A stretch of DNA of 64,000 nt from Candidatus Omnitrophota bacterium (GCA_041663425.1 JBAYMS010000001.1:8884-72883); one strand, 5' to 3'. Counted from the first letter of the stretch, positions 34,106-44,167 are shown. Made by a program: numbers and translations. The notes: generated by a model from the sequence alone, not told the origin.

Positions 34106-35341
34106 ATGCCATTTATCGCCGACTTCCATATACACTCAAAATACTCACGCGCGACGGCAAAAGATATGGATCTGGCCTCGCTGGCAAAATGGGCGAAGAT
34201 AAAAGGCGTTGCAATGCTGGGCACCGGCGATTTTACCCACCCTTCGTGGTTTTCGGAACTTAAAAATAAATTAAAAGAAACAGATGCACCGGGCGTTTAT
34301 GAATACGAAGGCATATTATTCATACTGACGGCTGAAGTTTCAAATATATATTTTAAGGCAGGCAGGACCAGGAAAGTACACAATATAATATTTGCCCCAT
34401 CGCTTAATGCGGCTGAGGAAATAACTTCCGCAGTATCGGAATACGGCGAACTTTCCAGCGACGGCAGGCCGATCCTGAGTGTAGAATGCGACAGGATGGT
34501 CAGGCTCCTTACCAGGATAGACCCGAAGATTTTCTTTGTCCCCGCTCATGCGTGGACGCCGCACTTCAGTGTGTTCGGTTCGAATTCCGGATTTGACCTG
34601 CCCGAAGAGTGTTACGAAGACCAGACGGACAAAATATTTTCGATAGAGACCGGGTTGTCGAGCGATCCGGCCATGAACTGGCGCTGGTCCAGGCTCGACA
34701 GGTTTTGCATGACGTCCAACTCTGATGCGCATTCTCCGTCGAAAATAGGGCGCGAGGCGAATGTATTTAAAGATAAAATAAATTACACTGAGCTCATTGA
34801 TATACTTAAGAAAAAAGATAAGGCGCGGTTCCTTTACACGATAGAATTTTTTCCTGAAGAAGGAAAATACCACTGGGACGGGCACAGGGACTGCAAGGCA
34901 AGGTTTCCGCCGCGGGAAGCGATGAAGTTAAATAATATTTGCCCTGTCTGCGGCAAGAAGGTTACAATAGGTGTTATGCACAGGCTCGAAGGCCTGGCAG
35001 ACAGAAGCGAAGGATATGCCGATGCGGCGAGCCCTTCTTATAAAAGATTGGTGCCGCTGGCGGAGATCATAGGAAGTGCTTTTGGTGTAGGTACGGAATC
35101 CCTGAAGGTAGAAAGGGAATATTTCCGGTTAATTAAAAATTTCGGAACAGAATTTAATATGCTCCTGTATATGAACGAAAAGGAGCTTCGCGAAAGTCTC
35201 CCGGAGAGGATCGCCAGAGGAATTATAAACGTCCGCAGCGGCGATATCGAAATAAATCCGGGCTACGATGGAGAATACGGGAAAGTAACGGTTTTCAAAG
35301 AAGGCGACACGGCTCAGGATAAGCAGATGAGCTTCTTATAG
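34106..35341 (+). CDS. PHP-domain protein with a C-terminal CPVCG zinc finger (EndoQ-like / TIGR00375-type)
   Basis: The N-terminus is MPFIADFHIHSKYSRATAKDM...LGTGDFTHP (PHP motif I), and it carries NICPVCGKK. It is embedded between pyrC and pyrK. Confidence 0.5.
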   Translation: MPFIADFHIHSKYSRATAKDMDLASLAKWAKIKGVAMLGTGDFTHPSWFSELKNKLKETDAPGVYEYEGILFILTAEVSNIYFKAGRTRKVHNIIFAPSLNAAEEITSAVSEYGELSSDGRPILSVECDRMVRLLTRIDPKIFFVPAHAWTPHFSVFGSNSGFDLPEECYEDQTDKIFSIETGLSSDPAMNWRWSRLDRFCMTSNSDAHSPSKIGREANVFKDKINYTELIDILKKKDKARFLYTIEFFPEEGKYHWDGHRDCKARFPPREAMKLNNICPVCGKKVTIGVMHRLEGLADRSEGYADAASPSYKRLVPLAEIIGSAFGVGTESLKVEREYFRLIKNFGTEFNMLLYMNEKELRESLPERIARGIINVRSGDIEINPGYDGEYGKVTVFKEGDTAQDKQMSFL

Positions 35342-38466: not shown

Positions 38467-38541
38467 GGGCAAGTAGCTCAATGGCGGAGCAATCGGTTTA
38501 CATCCGATAGGTTACAGGTTCGACCCCTGTCTTGCCCACCA
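38467..38541 (+). tRNA. tRNA-Val (anticodon TAC)
   Basis: The sequence is GGGCAAGTAGCTCAATGGCGGAGCAATCGGTTTACATCCGATAGGTTACAGGTTCGACCCCTGTCTTGCCCACCA. Confidence 0.8.
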
Positions 38542-38616
38542 CTTCTCTGAATAACCCAAGCCATGCAGTCCCGAGGAGATGTGGTTTGACTGATGCGACG
38601 AGGGACACTTAACCCT

Positions 38617-38859
38617 ATGAGCAAGTGGACTGTTTATATTCTTAAATGTAATGACGCTTCTTTATATACCGGCATTACGACCGATCTTGAAAAACGGGTA
38701 AAAAAGCACAATGAAGGCCGTGCTGCGAAGTACACGAGAGCAAAAAGGCCTGTTTCAGTGGTTTATACTGAAGGCGCTGTTAATTCATCCTCAGCTAAAA
38801 AGAGAGAAGCCGAGATAAAAAAATTATCTCGACAAGCTAAGGTAGAGCTGATAAAATAA
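38617..38859 (+). CDS. GIY-YIG nuclease family protein (UPF0213-like)
   Basis: It reads WTVYILKCNDASLYTGITTDLEKRVKKHNEG. The likely start is MSKW at 38617. It lies between two tRNAs. Confidence 0.7.
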   Translation: MSKWTVYILKCNDASLYTGITTDLEKRVKKHNEGRAAKYTRAKRPVSVVYTEGAVNSSSAKKREAEIKKLSRQAKVELIK

Positions 38860-38873
38860 GCTTCCAGATTTCC

Positions 38874-38950
38874 GGGGACGTAGTTCAGTTGGTTAGAACG
38901 TCAGATTGTCGATCTGAAGGTCGCGGGTTCGACCCCCGTCGTCCCCGCCA
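38874..38950 (+). tRNA. tRNA-Asp (anticodon GTC)
   Basis: The sequence is GGGGACGTAGTTCAGTTGGTTAGAACGTCAGATTGTCGATCTGAAGGTCGCGGGTTCGACCCCCGTCGTCCCCGCCA. Confidence 0.85.
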
Positions 38951-38985
38951 TATAGAAACAGTAACTGGTTTAATACCAGATGATT

Positions 38986-39030
38986 AGCCGTAACAAGTTG
39001 TAAATTCAACTGGTTACGGCTATTTTATTT
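38986..39030 (+). terminator. Intrinsic terminator after tRNA-Asp
   Basis: A perfect 9-bp stem AGCCGTAAC / GTTACGGCT with a 18-nt loop is followed by ATTTTATTT. Confidence 0.55.
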
Positions 39031-39104
39031 ATCTTGCGTGTTTTGGAAATTAGCGCTATTCTTGGAAGTGATGGCACAAAAATGGCACAGTCATAGGGCT
39101 CCGA

Positions 39105-39599
39105 ATGGCGAATAATATTGATGTTTCAAAACTTCCGCTAAGCAAGATATTGATTTTGTTTGGCGACTTAATGGATGAGCTGAAGAAAAGAGGCGTTGTT
39201 AGAACGCGTAATAATCCGGTAGCTGACTATGCCGAATGGCTAACGGTAAGAGTCTTTAGTCTTGGCATCCAAACAAGCTCTAACAAAGGCTTTGATGCCA
39301 TTGATAAAAAAGGAATTCGATACCAAATAAAAGGCCGTAGGCTCGATGCTTCAAACCCATCCCGGCAATTGGGGGTTATTCGCGATCTTGATAAAAAGGG
39401 ATTCGATTTTCTTATCGCTATCATATTTAACAAAGATTTTACTATTCACGATGCCTATAAAATTCCGCACGAGCTCATAGGCGAATACGCTCGTTATAGT
39501 AAACATCAAAATGGATATATATTACACCTTAAAGGAAAAATTCTTCTGGCAAAAGGCGTTGAGAATATTACCGGAGCATTAAGCAAAGTTTCGGCATGA
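39105..39599 (+). CDS. Hypothetical small protein, possibly PD-(D/E)xK nuclease-like, 8 bp upstream of the PHP-ATPase gene
   Basis: It is 164 aa. Candidate catalytic motifs are GFDAID ... YQIKG (D...(E/Q)xK). I recognise no family for it, and the motif assignment is tentative. Confidence 0.35.
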   Translation: MANNIDVSKLPLSKILILFGDLMDELKKRGVVRTRNNPVADYAEWLTVRVFSLGIQTSSNKGFDAIDKKGIRYQIKGRRLDASNPSRQLGVIRDLDKKGFDFLIAIIFNKDFTIHDAYKIPHELIGEYARYSKHQNGYILHLKGKILLAKGVENITGALSKVSA

Positions 39600-39606
39600 G
39601 GAGATT

Positions 39607-42477
39607 ATGAACTATCCACGAGGGTCGGAATGGAGAAAATGGGACTTACATTTACACACACCGTCTTCTTATGATTACGATGACAAGAGCGTCACAGATG
39701 AGCAATTGATTAAAACCTTAAAAGAAAACGAAATTACCGTTGTAGCTATAACGGATCATCATTTTATAGATGTTGAAAAGATAAAGAAACTACAAGAATT
39801 AGCAAAAGACGAAATTACAATATTCCCGGGGATTGAGCTTCGAGCAGAGCTGGGAGGTAGCGAATCCATCCATTTTATAGGAATATTCCCAGAGGATTCT
39901 GATGTAAATGATATTTGGACAAAATTACAGGGGCAGTTAGAATTAACGCCAGCGGATGTAAAGAAAAAAGGTAATGATAAGATTTATTGCCATTTGAATA
40001 AGGCCGCCGAGCTTATTCATCAGTTGGGAGGCATTATAACTATTCATGCTGGCTCGAAAAGTAACTCGGTTGAAAAAATCACTAATGCGCTTCCATATAA
40101 AGAAGCGCTTAAAGAAGACATTGTGAAATCTATCAATGTCTATGAAATCGGGAATTCAGCCGATGTGGAAGGATACAGAAGCAATGTTTTTCCGAACATA
40201 GGGATTAAAATTCCTTTGGTAATTTGTTCTGACAACCACGATATAAAAAAGTATGTGTTAAAAGAGAATTGTTGGATAAAAGCAGATCCAACATTTACCG
40301 GGTTAAAGCAGATTATATTAGAGCCGGAGGATAGGGTATATATTGGCAAAGCTCCAACGAGGAGGAAAAACCTCGCCAGCGTAATCGACAAGATTGAGAT
40401 TAGTAATTCTAACGGGTGGTTTGAGGAATCCCCTATTGTTTTAAACGAAGACTTGGTCACCATAATAGGAGAAAAAGGTGCCGGTAAGACCGCGCTTGCC
40501 GATTTTATAGCTCTGGCGGGCGGGGATTTTGGGCTTCAAAAAAGCGATGCTAGCTCTTTTGTATTCAAAGCTCTAACCCCTACCAAACAAATCGAGAAGA
40601 CCATTGAAAATTGTCAAGTAACTATCAAATGGAAAGAGGGCAATCCCGACCAGATAACTATAAACAAAGAGCTGGTTGATTATAAACCTACGAAGAAAGT
40701 AAAATATTTATCTCAAAGTTTTATTGAGGAAAAATGTCGCCCAGAACACGCTGATGAATTGAGAAAAGAAATCGAGAATATCGTTTTTCAATATATACCA
40801 ACATCCGATAGGCTTGGGCAAACAACATTTAACGATTTAAAACGTTTAATGACGCGGGGTATTGAAGTAGAAAAAAGTAACTGCAGACAGCTTTTATTCG
40901 ACCTCAATGGTGAAATTTCTATTCTAAGAGACGAGATAGATAATCTCGAAGTACAAAAGTCAACTAAGAAGAAAACTGAAGATGAAATAACTCAGTTAAA
41001 TGAACAGAAACCAAAACCTGCTGATGCCGAGGAAAAAGCCATCGAAGATAAGCTGGCTATTTTATATACCAAGAAAAGTGAGATTAACGAAAAAGTTGCA
41101 GAATGCAAGTTGCAATTAAGCACCATAGAATCTATAAAAACAAAGCTGCTAGCTCTAAGTCAATACGTTGAAAAAGAATTGATTAGCATTAAGACGGACC
41201 TTGATTCAATAGCTTTAGGCAGTATTTACAACAAGCTAACATTTTCAATAAATCCAGAATTTCATACGAAGCTTGATGAAGCTAAGAATAAGCTGACGAA
41301 ACAGATTAAAGATTTTGAAGGAGCGCCGGAAAAAGTATCGTCCCTCACCGAAGATGAGAAAAAACTAGAGCTGATAACGACTGATTTTGTCAATGGGCTC
41401 ACACTTTCTCGTTTAGATGTAATTATAGAATGGCTAGAAACAAAATCGAGCATTGCCTATGATGCAAGAAAAGTTATTAAGGATTTCGAAGAGAAAATAG
41501 AGAAAAATAAGAAAGCAGTAGCATCTTTAGAAAAAAGCATCGCCGAGGTAGAGAAAACAAAAAAACCTACTCTTGCGAAGAAAATCGAGGAAAGAAATAG
41601 TGCCTATAAAAGTTATTTCACTTTGCTCCAAAAAGAAAAAAGTGTATTTGAAAGCCTGAGCGCACCTATTAAAACAAAAATTGATTCAGAGAATGTTGGT
41701 GATAAGCAGATAGGTTACTCAGCAAGAATTGAATTTGATGTTAATGGATTTTATGAAAAAGCATGTGAAATAATAAATTTCAAAGCAGCTGGTCATTATC
41801 ATCAAGATGGCCAACTGTTATTTAAAGATATCAAAGCCATAGCAGAAAAGATTGAGCTCGCAGAAGATGCCGATGTTTGCGCTTGTCTTGTAGACCGGTT
41901 CATTCAAACATTCGAAAAAGATGATGGTAGCGATGTTGATATTAAAACTCAACTGAAAAAAGGTAAAAAACAAATTGATTTTGATGCATGGCTTTTTGGT
42001 ATTTCATTCTTCAGCGTGACATATAGCATAAAATACCAAGATACTTATATTGAATTGCTATCTCCTGGAAAAAAAGGGATAGTGTTGTTACTAATGTATC
42101 TCACGTTAGATGCTGAGAGTGGCATACCGTTGATTATAGACCAACCAGAAGAAAATCTAGACAACAAATCCGTATATGCGCATCTAATAGAATACTTCCG
42201 CCAAGCCAAGAAGCGGCGGCAAATTATCGTTGTAACACACAATCCGAATTTAGTATTAAATACAGATGCCGAACAAGTGCTTGTTGCTGATTTTCAAGTC
42301 GTACCACCTGCGGGGCAAGCAAGAATAAGATATATAAGCGGGTCTATAGAAAATTCGTTTATTAACGAGTCTCTCAAAGACCCTCTCAGAAGACAGGGTA
42401 TTCGCGAGCATGGTGCCGAGATATTGGAGGGCGGTAAAAAGGCCTTTATTCAGCGAAAAGATAAGTACGAATACTAA
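39607..42477 (+). CDS. 956-aa fusion of an N-terminal PHP phosphoesterase domain with an SMC/Rad50/SbcC-like ABC ATPase that has a long coiled-coil insert (Ppl-like candidate defense protein)
   Basis: The PHP motifs are WDLHLHTPSS, AITDHH, ITIHAG and CSDNHD. The Walker A is GEKGAGKT (about aa 290). Roughly 500 aa of K/E-rich coiled coil follow. The ABC signature-like motif is LSPGKKG, the Walker B is LIIDQPEENLD and the H-loop is VVTHN. Confidence 0.7.
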   Translation: MNYPRGSEWRKWDLHLHTPSSYDYDDKSVTDEQLIKTLKENEITVVAITDHHFIDVEKIKKLQELAKDEITIFPGIELRAELGGSESIHFIGIFPEDSDVNDIWTKLQGQLELTPADVKKKGNDKIYCHLNKAAELIHQLGGIITIHAGSKSNSVEKITNALPYKEALKEDIVKSINVYEIGNSADVEGYRSNVFPNIGIKIPLVICSDNHDIKKYVLKENCWIKADPTFTGLKQIILEPEDRVYIGKAPTRRKNLASVIDKIEISNSNGWFEESPIVLNEDLVTIIGEKGAGKTALADFIALAGGDFGLQKSDASSFVFKALTPTKQIEKTIENCQVTIKWKEGNPDQITINKELVDYKPTKKVKYLSQSFIEEKCRPEHADELRKEIENIVFQYIPTSDRLGQTTFNDLKRLMTRGIEVEKSNCRQLLFDLNGEISILRDEIDNLEVQKSTKKKTEDEITQLNEQKPKPADAEEKAIEDKLAILYTKKSEINEKVAECKLQLSTIESIKTKLLALSQYVEKELISIKTDLDSIALGSIYNKLTFSINPEFHTKLDEAKNKLTKQIKDFEGAPEKVSSLTEDEKKLELITTDFVNGLTLSRLDVIIEWLETKSSIAYDARKVIKDFEEKIEKNKKAVASLEKSIAEVEKTKKPTLAKKIEERNSAYKSYFTLLQKEKSVFESLSAPIKTKIDSENVGDKQIGYSARIEFDVNGFYEKACEIINFKAAGHYHQDGQLLFKDIKAIAEKIELAEDADVCACLVDRFIQTFEKDDGSDVDIKTQLKKGKKQIDFDAWLFGISFFSVTYSIKYQDTYIELLSPGKKGIVLLLMYLTLDAESGIPLIIDQPEENLDNKSVYAHLIEYFRQAKKRRQIIVVTHNPNLVLNTDAEQVLVADFQVVPPAGQARIRYISGSIENSFINESLKDPLRRQGIREHGAEILEGGKKAFIQRKDKYEY

Positions 42478-42655
42478 GTTTAATAATCAATTGCTGAGAA
42501 TAAATATAAACAAGAACTGATTAATCGCTGGTCTAAGCTTTATGGTAAACAGATAACCGAAGAAGAATATCGACAGATTTGTGATAATTTAAGCGGTTAC
42601 ATTAAACTTTTGTATGAGTGGGATATGAAAGATAAAACGCAAAAAGGAGAGCACA

Positions 42656-43037: not shown

Positions 43038-43751
43038 TTACACTGCACAGCTCGTAAGGTGAATTTCTGGTGTTTTTTGTTGTTCTTTCCAGGCCTTGGT
43101 GAACTCTGCCGGAGTTAGACCGTCTAACGATCCGTGAGGCCTGAATGTATTATACTCCACTCTCCAGTCTTCGATAATCTTTTTTGCTTCTTCAATCGTA
43201 ACGAAGTAATGTTGATTGAGGCATTCGTGCCGTAGCCTACCATTGAACGACTCGATAAAAGCGTTCTGTATGGGCTTGCCGGGCTTTATAAAGTCAAGCC
43301 TAGCACCGTTATCATACGCCCATTTATCAAGGGCTCGTCCCGCGAACTCAGGACCGTTATCGGTCGTGATTACTTGCGGACATCCTCTTGTAAGAACTAG
43401 CCAATCAAGCACTCTCGTTACTCTGTTACCGTCTATAGACGTATCGACTTCGATAGAGAGACATTCTTTAGTAAAGATATCAAGCACGTTCAGCGTCTTT
43501 ATCTTCCTGCCGTTCCATAACCCGTCTGACATAAAGTCCATCGCCCAGCGTTCATTGGGCTTCGAGGCTTCCGGTAGCTCTAGTCTGATCATTGAGGCTC
43601 TCTTGTGACGTTTGCGAAGCTTTAGCGCGAGGCTATTCTCCTTATAGATGCGCTCGGTGCGCTTATGGTTTACTACAAGTCCCTCACGATGCAATATATC
43701 GTGAAGCATCGGAAGTCCCCAGCTCTTATGCGTAGCTATAAGCTCCTTCAT
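43038..43751 (-). CDS. IS3-family transposase OrfB (DDE integrase catalytic domain); the N-terminal part is upstream in the -1 frame, overlapping orfA
   Basis: It has an rve-type core: ITTDNGPEFAG...LDFIKPGKPIQNAFIESFNGRLRHECLN. Confidence 0.85.
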   Translation of the reverse strand: MKELIATHKSWGLPMLHDILHREGLVVNHKRTERIYKENSLALKLRKRHKRASMIRLELPEASKPNERWAMDFMSDGLWNGRKIKTLNVLDIFTKECLSIEVDTSIDGNRVTRVLDWLVLTRGCPQVITTDNGPEFAGRALDKWAYDNGARLDFIKPGKPIQNAFIESFNGRLRHECLNQHYFVTIEEAKKIIEDWRVEYNTFRPHGSLDGLTPAEFTKAWKEQQKTPEIHLTSCAV

Positions 43752-43888
43752 ACGGTCTAATATCTTCGCATCGTTATTAGCTCTACTGGTCTTGTAATAA
43801 TAGCTTGATCTATTAAGCTCTACAAGCCTGCATGATCTAGCCTTCGACAGCCCAAAGCGCTCTTTTAACCGAGCTACAGCAAGTCTCT

Positions 43889-44167
43889 TTACTTTGGGCT
43901 TAGGAAGTTTTTTGAGTTGAGCGCCTTTAACGCCTGGTTATCGAGTGTTAAGTCCGCGACTATGTTCTTTAGTCTGCGGTTCTCATCCTCGAGCGCCCTT
44001 AGTTTCTTCGCGTCTGATACTTCCATGCCGCCATACTTCGATATCCACTTATAGATCGTGCCTTCACAGACATTAGCTTCTCTTGAGATATCTGAAACCG
44101 CCACTCCTTGCTCATGTCTCTTTAAAAAAGCTATTATCTGTTCCTCTGTAAATCTTTTGCGTGACAT
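43889..44167 (-). CDS. IS3-family transposase OrfA (HTH)
   Basis: It reads MSRKRFTEEQIIAFLKRHEQGVAVSDISREANVCEGTIYKW and has a leucine-zipper-like C-terminus. Confidence 0.85.
   Translation of the reverse strand: MSRKRFTEEQIIAFLKRHEQGVAVSDISREANVCEGTIYKWISKYGGMEVSDAKKLRALEDENRRLKNIVADLTLDNQALKALNSKNFLSPK

What the first reader, a model, noticed from the sequence alone, without database searches (positions are those of the whole stretch)
39105..39599. Small ORF 8 bp upstream of the PHP-ATPase gene, possible PD-(D/E)xK-like partner
This 164-aa ORF is co-oriented with the big gene and almost abuts it, so the two are probably one operon. I recognise no family for it. A GFDAID ... YQIKG arrangement could be a degenerate PD-(D/E)xK nuclease core. 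If it is conserved alongside the PHP-ATPase in other genomes, the unit is a two-component system rather than single-gene Ppl. A TGGCAC-N5-TGGCA element lies upstream at 39072-39087; I weighed it as a sigma54-type promoter and rejected it.
Basis: inference. Interest (0 to 1): 0.5.

Follow-up and report, generated by a model that had tools for sequence, protein, structure and literature searches.

The report
BisI-type methylation-dependent restriction enzyme gene
The small gene encodes a member of the known BisI family of restriction enzymes, which cut DNA only when it carries methylated cytosines; it sits beside the large PHP-ATPase defence gene in this genome only, so it is an ordinary stand-alone defence gene and not a dedicated partner.

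Summary
The 164-aa ORF at 39105-39599 is real. It lies 7 nt upstream of the 956-aa gene on the same strand.

The ORF does have a family. It matches the solved BisI-family enzymes Eco15I (E=1e-42, 48% identity) and NhoI (E=1e-19), and a PADLOC methyl-directed type II REase model over its full length (E=3e-60). An AlphaFold model (pLDDT 89) hits Eco15I and NhoI first, then PvuII and DpnI.

The two-component idea fails.
- None of 80 genomic loci carrying a BisI-like gene has a PHP-ATPase within 10 kb.
- None of 84 loci carrying a homolog of the large gene has a BisI-like gene.
- The closest relatives (60-78% identity) are followed by unrelated genes.

The large gene belongs to the TrlF family, not to Ppl. 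Its homologs are often embedded in type I and type III restriction operons.

Verdict: this is a new, uncharacterised member of a known enzyme family, packed tightly into a low-GC defence islet next to tRNA-Asp. The two genes are probably co-transcribed here. Interest is low.

The parts
39105..39599 (+). Gene for a 164-aa BisI-family (Eco15I-like) modification-dependent restriction endonuclease. Catalytic residues are E44, D64, Q74 and K76. Predicted methyl-pocket residues are R78, R93, H134 and Q135.
   Evidence: PADLOC mREase_II model PDLC03212, E=3.1e-60, full length. Pfam DUF6998, 28.8 bits against a cutoff of 27. PDB Eco15I 8q5m E=1.2e-42 and NhoI 8q5n E=1.4e-19. AF2 pLDDT 89. Foldseek 8q5o E=7e-16. 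Residue conservation.
39057..39093 (+). Conserved 37-nt block directly upstream of the gene: TATTCTTGGAAGTGATGGCACAAAAATGGCACAGTCA. It is a probable promoter, operator or 5'-UTR element that travels with the gene.
   Evidence: The block is 34/37 identical in L001 and 35/37 in L166, while the coding DNA is 77-79% identical. Function is not established.
38985..39022 (+). 16-bp-stem hairpin followed by a T-rich run. It looks like a terminator for tRNA-Asp. Homology to the related BisI cassette in L001 begins right after it, at 39023.
   Evidence: Inverted repeat I2, 94% complementary. blastn homology between L001 and the window starts at 39023.
38874..38950 (+). tRNA-Asp(GTC), at the left edge of the low-GC defence islet.
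   Evidence: ARAGORN. GC falls from 0.44-0.54 to 0.32-0.41 between about 39.0 and 43.0 kb.
39599..39606 (+). Junction between the two genes: the last base of the stop codon, the AGGAG ribosome-binding site and a 7-nt spacer. No terminator or promoter is predicted, so co-transcription is inferred.
   Evidence: Sequence. Promoter and terminator scan.
39607..42477 (+). 956-aa TrlF-family PHP-domain plus ABC/SMC-like ATPase. It is an independent defence-type gene, not a conserved partner of the small ORF.
   Evidence: NCBIfam NF045780 TrlF_fam_ATP, 566 bits against a cutoff of 350, profile positions 1-944 of 944; Ppl model only 120 bits against a cutoff of 1000. Pfam SMC_N, AAA_21 and PHP. The residues HxH (H15, H17), GxxGxGK (G288-K294) and DQPEENLD (845-852) are invariant in alignment A3.
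42531..42569 (+). 39-nt remnant (encoding ...SKLYGKQITEEEY...) just downstream of the TrlF gene. It is 90% identical to a piece downstream of the BisI-like gene in L166. It suggests conserved flanks around a variable middle slot that TrlF occupies here.
   Evidence: blastn, window 42531-42569 against L166 1229-1267, E=7e-9. The differences are mostly synonymous.
43038..44167 (-). IS3-type transposase (OrfA 43889-44167, OrfB 43038-43751), at the right edge of the islet.
   Evidence: Pfam HTH_Tnp_1, rve, rve_3 and HTH_21.

Best explanation
The ORF encodes a stand-alone BisI-family (Eco15I/NhoI-like) modification-dependent restriction endonuclease.

By homology it should act as a homodimer with a PvuII-like PD-(D/E)XK fold. 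It should bind a short GC-rich palindrome, predicted to be GCNGC. It should sense two to four 5-methyl (or 5-hydroxymethyl) cytosines in intact duplex DNA without base flipping, using the pockets formed by R78, R93 and H134-Q135. It should cut inside the site using a single-metal active site made of E44, D64, Q74 and K76. Host DNA is spared because it lacks that methylation. Incoming phage or plasmid DNA that carries it is cut.

The gene moves as a small cassette made of a conserved 37-nt upstream element plus the ORF. In this Omnitrophota genome the cassette sits in a low-GC defence islet at tRNA-Asp, directly upstream of an independent TrlF-family PHP-ATPase defence gene. The two genes are probably co-transcribed. 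The adjacency results from defence-island packing and is not a dedicated two-protein machine.

Shown here: family membership, fold, conservation of catalytic and pocket residues, and lack of pair conservation. Inferred: the recognition sequence, the dependence on modification, dimerisation and co-transcription.
For: Sequence. phmmer against the PDB gives Eco15I E=1.2e-42 over residues 14-155 with no gaps, and NhoI E=1.4e-19. Identity to Eco15I_Ntd is 48%. PADLOC mREase_II matches at E=3.1e-60 across 156 of 161 model positions.

Fold. The AF2 model has pLDDT 89 and pTM 0.85. The Foldseek PDB ranking is Eco15I_Ntd, then NhoI (E about 1e-15), then PvuII and DpnI. PMC11347163 reports the same structural neighbours for the family.

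Residues. In 203 relatives, E44, D64, K76, R78 and R93 are each kept in 198-203, Q74 is kept or replaced by E in all, and N36, S59 and H134 are kept in 182-197. PMC11347163 shows that mutating the equivalent catalytic residues abolishes Eco15I activity.

Independence from TrlF.
- tblastn with TrlF gives 0 hits in 80 BisI-like loci, 61 of which have at least 3 kb downstream, and the positive control works.
- A TrlF HMM gives 0 real hits in those loci.
- A BisI HMM and tblastn give 0 hits in 84 TrlF loci, 74 of which have at least 600 bp upstream.
- The closest relatives L001 (78%), L166 (73%), L003 (65%), L167 (63%), L168 (60%) and L170 (59%) have other neighbours.
- Homology to L001 and L166 stops at the stop codon.

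No C5-methyltransferase-like gene is found in the window with two query methyltransferases. This fits a solitary modification-dependent enzyme.
Against: No biochemical data exist for this protein or for its immediate subfamily. The second residue of the published internal-methyl-pocket motif (H/R)(V/I/T/M) is Q here. HQ occurs in 107 of 203 relatives and HV in 60, so substrate preference could differ from Eco15I and NhoI. The 7-nt spacing with a ribosome-binding site overlapping the stop codon is tighter than mere neighbourhood requires, so some functional coupling with TrlF in this genome cannot be excluded. The genome-wide methyltransferase content of the host is unknown, because only 64 kb were seen.
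Confidence: 0.85

Rival explanations
1. The small nuclease and the PHP-ATPase form a dedicated two-component defence system that is conserved as a gene pair, with the small protein acting as the nuclease effector or partner of the ATPase.
For: The genes share a strand, are separated by 7 nt with a ribosome-binding site at the stop codon, and have no predicted terminator or promoter between them. Both are defence-type genes.
Against: 0 of 80 BisI-like loci carry a TrlF or PHP-ATPase. 0 of 84 TrlF loci carry a BisI-like gene. The nearest relatives of each gene have different neighbours. BisI-family enzymes are active alone as homodimers (PMC4926085, PMC11347163). TrlF already carries its own predicted PHP phosphoesterase domain.
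Confidence: 0.05
2. Loose, partner-agnostic coupling. TrlF-family PHP-ATPases are restriction-linked second-line modules, analogous to PrrC or RloC embedded in type I R-M loci. Here one has been wired behind a modification-dependent enzyme, so the two genes cooperate or one guards the other, although the specific pair is not conserved.
For: About a quarter of the immediate co-oriented neighbours of TrlF homologs are R-M components, roughly 26 of 98. They include HsdS, HsdR/ResIII, N6_N4 methyltransferase, a C5 methyltransferase, a BsuBI/PstI REase and GmrSD, often at gaps of 12-80 bp. For BisI-like genes the figure is about 4 of 97. Fisher p is about 1e-5. The window arrangement, a restriction gene followed after 7 nt by TrlF, fits this habit. 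A precedent for embedded defence genes is bioRxiv 10.1101/2024.01.29.577857.
Against: This is association only. The family counts may overlap in fused proteins and are partly lower bounds. Many TrlF homologs have no R-M neighbour. No type I or type III R-M gene and no TrlG-like gene is present in the window. No interaction evidence exists. In Photorhabdus the only phenotype maps to trlG, not trlF (bioRxiv 10.1101/2020.06.02.129163).
Confidence: 0.1
3. The ORF is a decayed or inactive relic of a nuclease gene, a degenerate PD-(D/E)XK core with no activity.
For: The 'PD' and '(D/E)XK' motifs are non-canonical (FD and QIK).
Against: These are the functional variants seen in active, crystallised family members: AD or WD, and QIK or QVK (PMC11347163). 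The protein is full-length against the PADLOC model. All catalytic residues are conserved. The model is confident. The gene is 73-78% identical to relatives, with a conserved upstream element.
Confidence: 0.03

Closest known systems
Eco15I N-terminal domain (PDB 8q5m, 8q5o), BisI family, E. coli 541-15
   Same: 48% identity over 142 residues without gaps. Same fold. Same catalytic residues (E, D, Q-I-K), the same Arg/Arg/His methyl-pocket residues, and the same I at the NhoI-T144 position.
   Different: Eco15I has an extra C-terminal domain of about 110-130 aa of unknown function, which is absent here. Eco15I has AD and HV where this protein has FD and HQ. Eco15I-lineage genes sit behind an XRE-type regulator (PMC4926085), and this one does not.
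NhoI (PDB 8q5n, 8rpx) and BisI itself (Gm5C^NGC)
   Same: Single-domain enzymes of 150-180 aa with the PvuII-like PD-(D/E)XK fold. The sequence-contact residues N42, S65, R84, Q96, R101, S137 and H139 (NhoI numbering) are conserved here (PMC11347163).
   Different: Only 33% identity to NhoI. NhoI S98 is G90 here, V140 is Q135 and T144 is I139. The substrate range (2-4 5mC, 5hmC) is untested.
PvuII (conventional type II REase)
   Same: The nearest non-family structural neighbour, with a similar dimer-forming N-terminal helices plus PD-(D/E)XK core (PMC11347163).
   Different: PvuII cuts unmodified CAGCTG and is paired with a methyltransferase. There is no significant sequence similarity.
PrrC/EcoprrI and RloC (ABC-ATPase effectors embedded in type I R-M loci)
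   Same: This resembles the TrlF side only. An ABC-type ATPase fused to a nuclease-type domain is often found inside or beside restriction operons.
   Different: No homology was tested or claimed. TrlF has an N-terminal PHP domain, not an anticodon-nuclease domain. The neighbour here is a modification-dependent enzyme, not a type I system.
Photorhabdus TRL operon (trlF-trlR-trlG) and Ppl
   Same: The large neighbour passes the NCBIfam TrlF equivalog model. It shares the PHP plus ABC-ATPase architecture with Ppl.
   Different: No TrlG-like or TrlR-like gene is present in the window. The Ppl model score is far below its cutoff.

Membership tests
[quoted passage not shown] | Significant full-length sequence similarity to biochemically characterised members | tested here: met
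   Eco15I E=1.2e-42 and NhoI E=1.4e-19. PADLOC mREase_II PDLC03212 E=3.1e-60, model positions 2-157 of 161.
[quoted passage not shown] | PvuII-like PD-(D/E)XK fold: alpha0 and alpha1 helices, then a mixed beta-sheet | tested here: met
   AF2 pLDDT 89, with helices 12-28 and 36-50 followed by strands. Foldseek ranks Eco15I_Ntd and NhoI at E about 1e-15, then PvuII and DpnI.
[quoted passage not shown] | Catalytic residues: a Glu in helix alpha1, xD (variant PD), and Q(V/I)K (variant (D/E)XK) | tested here: met
   E44, F63-D64 and Q74-I75-K76. These are conserved in 198-203 of 203 relatives. The motif definition is from PMC11347163.
[quoted passage not shown] | Methyl-pocket arginines (NhoI R84 and R101) | tested here: met
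   R78 and R93, present in 201 and 199 of 203 relatives.
[quoted passage not shown] | Internal-methyl motif (H/R)(V/I/T/M) near the C-terminus | tested here: inconclusive
   H134 is present, but the second residue is Q135, which is outside the published set. HQ is the commonest form among close relatives (107 of 203) and HV the next (60). This is a specificity feature, not a fold or catalysis feature. Its effect is unknown.
[quoted passage not shown] | Cleavage within GCNGC only when two or more cytosines are 5-methylated, acting as a homodimer | not testable with these tools
   Needs purified enzyme and modified substrates.
[quoted passage not shown] | Solitary small gene with no obligatory conserved partner | tested here: met
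   No neighbour family recurs across 80 loci, except an XRE regulator in 6 enterobacterial loci.
   0 of 80 BisI-like loci and 0 of 84 TrlF loci carry the pair, with positive controls.
TrlF family (the downstream gene) | Score above the NCBIfam equivalog cutoff over the full length | tested here: met
   NF045780 scores 566.4 bits against a cutoff of 350, residues 5-955 on profile positions 1-944.
TRL operon (trlF-trlR-trlG) | An adjacent TrlG (RecG-annotated, AlbA_2 plus HATPase_c_4) gene | tested here: not met
   tblastn with a TrlG-like neighbour from L126 and with helicase, Res and Mod neighbours finds nothing in the window. Downstream there are only 74-aa and 57-aa ORFs and an IS3 element.
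Ppl (the downstream gene) | Score above the NCBIfam Ppl_antiphage cutoff | tested here: not met
   120.4 bits against a cutoff of 1000, and only residues 6-305 align. The PADLOC Ppl match also covers only residues 6-304.
Sigma54 (-24/-12) promoter, for the element at 39072-39087 | GG-N10-GC with a TGGCAC-N5-TTGCW-like sequence, occurring more often than chance, with a transcription start compatible with the ribosome-binding site | tested here: inconclusive
   The spacing and 15 of 16 bases match, but the window holds 1 match against 1.36 expected by chance. The element is conserved in L001 and L166. In L166, however, the AGGAGG ribosome-binding site lies between the -12 element and the expected start site, which argues against sigma54 use.

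The most novel reading that the evidence does not exclude
TrlF-family PHP-ABC ATPases may be a restriction-linked backup defence layer, in the manner of PrrC or RloC, that attaches to restriction genes of any type. In this genome one would be co-transcribed with, and functionally coupled to, a modification-dependent BisI-type enzyme. In addition, the HQ-pocket subfamily of BisI enzymes, which is common in uncultivated bacteria and archaea, may recognise a modification or methylation pattern different from that of the characterised HV enzymes.
Probability: 0.12. Interest if true: 0.55.

Novelty: new member of a known kind. Interest (0 to 1): 0.22.

Why it matters
The result turns a 'hypothetical protein' in an Omnitrophota MAG, and the Pfam family DUF6998, into a recognisable enzyme: a BisI-type 5mC-dependent restriction endonuclease. 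It also removes a spurious two-component system from the candidate list.

Modest value remains in two places. First, the environmental HQ-pocket subfamily is biochemically untested and could provide new modification-dependent cutters for epigenetic mapping. Second, TrlF-family PHP-ATPases sit inside restriction operons far more often than BisI-like genes do. That side observation gives a testable lead on what TrlF does.

Tried and rejected
- **Conserved pair.** Tested from both sides with tblastn and custom HMMs, and rejected.
- **Shared downstream gene in the closest relatives.** Homology of L001 and L166 to the window ends at the stop codon. Their downstream ORFs (156, 85 and 110 aa) have no Pfam or PADLOC family and no counterpart in the window, apart from a 39-nt remnant.
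- **The SMC-like ATPase after the BisI-like gene in L168 as a TrlF relative.** It is not. It is LmuA-LmuB, a Lamassu system.
- **Sigma54 promoter.** The match is no better than chance in the window, and it conflicts with the ribosome-binding site position in L166. It is left unresolved as a conserved element of unknown role.
- **Sigma-70 promoter.** The scan reports none upstream of the ORF. A by-eye TTGCGT-17-TATTCT candidate at 39034-39062 also fits L001 but not L166, where the spacer is 21 nt.
- **tRNA-derived direct repeat marking an integration site.** None was found.
- **Cognate C5 methyltransferase, TrlG, helicase, or type III Res or Mod in the window.** None was found.
- **Literature.** No paper mentions DUF6998. 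The name 'TrlF' traces only to the Photorhabdus temperature-restriction preprint.

Full report
**Observation**

The ORF at 39105-39599 (+ strand, 164 aa) exists as described, and 39105 is the first start codon in its frame. Its TGA stop ends at 39599. The 956-aa gene starts at 39607, so the spacer is 7 nt. An AGGAG ribosome-binding site lies at 39599-39603. The scan finds no + strand terminator-like or promoter-like site at the junction. The element TGGCAC-N5-TGGCA is at 39072-39087. A 100% identical protein is on record from a Candidatus Omnitrophota MAG, annotated as hypothetical.

**What the ORF is**

- PADLOC's 'type II methyl-directed restriction enzyme' model PDLC03212 matches at E=3.1e-60 over positions 2-157 of 161.
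- Pfam DUF6998 is just above its cutoff.
- phmmer against PDB sequences gives Eco15I (8q5m) at E=1.2e-42, gap-free over residues 14-155, and NhoI (8q5n) at E=1.4e-19. Identity to the Eco15I N-terminal domain is 48%.

Eco15I and NhoI are the two crystallised members of the BisI family. Enzymes of this family cut inside GCNGC only when several cytosines are 5-methylated or 5-hydroxymethylated (PMC11347163, PMC4926085).

An AlphaFold2 model built on 25 homologs has pLDDT 89 and pTM 0.85. In a Foldseek search of the PDB it hits Eco15I_Ntd and NhoI at E about 1e-15, then PvuII and DpnI. The structural paper reports the same neighbours.

**Active site and recognition residues**

According to PMC11347163, the family's 'PD' motif is AD (Eco15I) or WD (NhoI), and its '(D/E)XK' motif is QIK or QVK. 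A glutamate in helix alpha1 is also needed, and mutating any of these residues abolishes Eco15I activity. The window protein has E44, F63-D64 and Q74-I75-K76.

Conservation was checked across 203 relatives: 120 database homologs, 80 genomic loci, Eco15I, NhoI and the window protein itself.

| Window residue | NhoI equivalent | Conserved in (of 203) |
|---|---|---|
| E44 | - | 198 |
| D64 | - | 200 |
| K76 | - | 203 |
| Q74 | - | 187 (E in the other 16) |
| R78 | R84 | 201 |
| R93 | R101 | 199 |
| N36 | N42 | 197 |
| S59 | S65 | 191 |
| H134 | H139 | 182 |

One deviation stands out. The published internal-methyl motif is (H/R)(V/I/T/M), but this protein has H134-Q135. HQ is the commonest form among these mostly environmental relatives (107 of 203), and HV is next (60). 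The characterised enzymes have HV, or HT in the Providencia rustigianii locus (L047) that carries Pru4541I. The effect of Q is unknown. It is the only feature suggesting that substrate preference could differ.

**Is the pair conserved?**

From the BisI side, a scan of 185,579 species-representative genomes returned 80 loci with a BisI-like gene, each with up to 10 kb on either side. Of these, 61 have at least 3 kb downstream and 57 have at least 3 kb upstream.
- tblastn with the window's 956-aa protein found nothing at E<=1e-3 and only noise at E<=10, while the positive control on the window worked.
- An HMM built from 116 TrlF homologs found only two weak, non-adjacent ATPase hits in one locus.

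The closest relatives of the small protein all have other neighbours.

| Locus | Identity | Context |
|---|---|---|
| L001 | 78% | Followed by two orphan ORFs and an IS element |
| L166 | 73% | Followed by a 110-aa ORF |
| L003 | 65% | Lies 15 bp after a type I HsdR gene |
| L167 | 63% | Next to an FRG/PDC-S15 candidate and a type I R-M system |
| L168 | 60% | Between a type III Res-Mod pair (18-bp gap) and a Lamassu LmuA-LmuB pair (51-bp gap) |
| L170 | 59% | Among metabolic genes |

From the TrlF side, I collected 84 distinct loci: four nearest homologs (50-62% identity) and 80 metagenomic loci. A BisI-family HMM and tblastn found no BisI-like gene in any of them, although the HMM scores 257 bits on the window. 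74 of these loci have at least 600 bp upstream.

**How the two genes came to be neighbours**

DNA homology between the window and L001 covers only 39023-39599. Homology with L166 covers only 39057-39596. In both cases it ends at the stop codon. The unit that is shared is therefore the ORF plus a short upstream block.

That block, 39057-39093, is 34/37 identical in L001 and 35/37 in L166, whereas the coding DNA is 77-79% identical. It is probably a promoter, operator or leader element that travels with the gene.

Just downstream of TrlF, a 39-nt piece (42531-42569) is 90% identical to a piece downstream of the L166 gene (E=7e-9). Most of the differences are synonymous. This suggests conserved flanks around a variable slot that TrlF occupies here.

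The whole stretch from about 39.0 to 43.0 kb has 32-41% GC, against 44-54% in the pyrimidine-biosynthesis genes upstream. It begins after tRNA-Asp and a terminator-like hairpin, and it ends at an IS3-type element. It is a small, horizontally acquired defence islet.

**The neighbour**

The large gene passes the NCBIfam TrlF-family equivalog model (566 bits, cutoff 350, full length). It fails the Ppl model (120 bits, cutoff 1000). The family name comes from the Photorhabdus 'temperature restriction locus' trlF-trlR-trlG, where the phenotype maps to trlG (bioRxiv 10.1101/2020.06.02.129163). No TrlG-like gene is present in the window.

TrlF homologs are frequently embedded in restriction operons. 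Of 54 immediate co-oriented upstream neighbours, at least 6 are HsdS, 6 carry ResIII (HsdR or Res), 4 are N6_N4 methyltransferases, 1 is a C5 methyltransferase and 1 is a BsuBI/PstI REase. Of 44 downstream neighbours, 3 carry ResIII, 2 are N6_N4 methyltransferases, 1 is HsdS, 1 is HsdM and 1 is GmrSD. Gaps are often 12-80 bp. Examples are Mod-TrlF-helicase in L085 and HsdM-(372-aa ORF with no Pfam hit)-HsdR-TrlF in L081.

The same analysis on BisI-like genes serves as a control. It gives about 4 R-M neighbours out of 97. The contrast is roughly 26/98 against 4/97, with Fisher p about 1e-5. These counts are approximate, because family hits may overlap in fused proteins and only the top 25 families are listed.

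The window's arrangement, a restriction gene followed after 7 nt by TrlF, thus fits a habit of TrlF and not a habit of BisI-like genes. This leaves room for a loose, partner-agnostic coupling of the PrrC/RloC kind (compare bioRxiv 10.1101/2024.01.29.577857). That coupling is an inference and nothing here tests it.

**The sigma54-like element**

The sequence matches TGGCAC-N5-TTGCW with one mismatch and the right GG-N10-GC spacing. However, one such match per 64 kb is what chance gives (1.36 expected). It is conserved in L001 and L166 as part of the 37-nt block. In L166 the AGGAGG ribosome-binding site lies between the '-12' element and the position where a sigma54 transcript would start. That argues against sigma54 use and favours a 5'-UTR or operator role for the ATGGCACA direct repeat.

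**Verdict**

[quoted passage not shown] It most likely works alone as a homodimer that cuts 5mC-bearing GCNGC-type sites. Its adjacency to the TrlF-family PHP-ATPase is specific to this genome. Novelty is 'new member of a known kind', and interest is low. The points still worth noting are the untested HQ-pocket subfamily, the conserved upstream block, and the association of TrlF with restriction operons.

Noticed in passing
Loci L081-L165 (TrlF homologs), for example L085 182-7312, L155 444-8485 and L081 106-9045: TrlF-family PHP-ATPase genes are often embedded in or appended to type I and type III restriction-modification operons. Occasionally they sit next to type II or type IV genes. About 26 of 98 immediate co-oriented neighbours are R-M components, against about 4 of 97 for BisI-like genes. 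TrlG-like neighbours occur in only 2-3 loci.
   Followed up: partly
window 39057-39093; L001 136-172; L166 80-116: A 37-nt block directly upstream of the BisI-like gene contains the direct repeat ATGGCACA-N3-ATGGCACA. It is 92-95% identical in three genomes whose coding DNA is only 77-79% identical. Its role (promoter, operator or leader) is unknown.
   Followed up: partly
window 42531-42569; L166 1229-1267: A 39-nt remnant encoding ...LYGKQITEEEY... lies downstream of TrlF in the window and downstream of the 110-aa ORF in L166. The differences are mostly synonymous. This hints at a shared ancestral locus with a variable middle slot.
   Followed up: partly
L168 1-10495: A 60%-identical BisI-like gene is wedged between a type III Res-Mod pair (18-bp gap) and a Lamassu LmuA-LmuB pair (51-bp gap). 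This is another case of very tight packing next to an unrelated SMC-like ATPase defence system.
   Followed up: yes
BisI-family alignment, window residues 134-135: Most environmental relatives carry H-Q at the internal-methyl pocket, where the characterised enzymes have H-V or H-T. The published motif (H/R)(V/I/T/M) does not include Q.
   Followed up: partly
window 38593-38859 (+): An 88-aa stand-alone GIY-YIG domain ORF (Pfam E=7e-20) sits between tRNA-Val (38467-38541) and tRNA-Asp (38874-38950).
   Followed up: no
window 34106-35341 (+): A 411-aa ORF inside the pyrimidine-biosynthesis gene run begins MPFIADFHIHSKYS..., which looks by eye like another PHP-type metal-dependent phosphoesterase. 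It was not checked with any tool.
   Followed up: no
L021, L028, L029, L034, L035, L037 (enterobacterial Eco15I-like loci), about 230-250 bp upstream of the REase gene: A co-oriented XRE-type HTH regulator is conserved upstream of the Eco15I-lineage genes only. It is absent from the window.
   Followed up: partly
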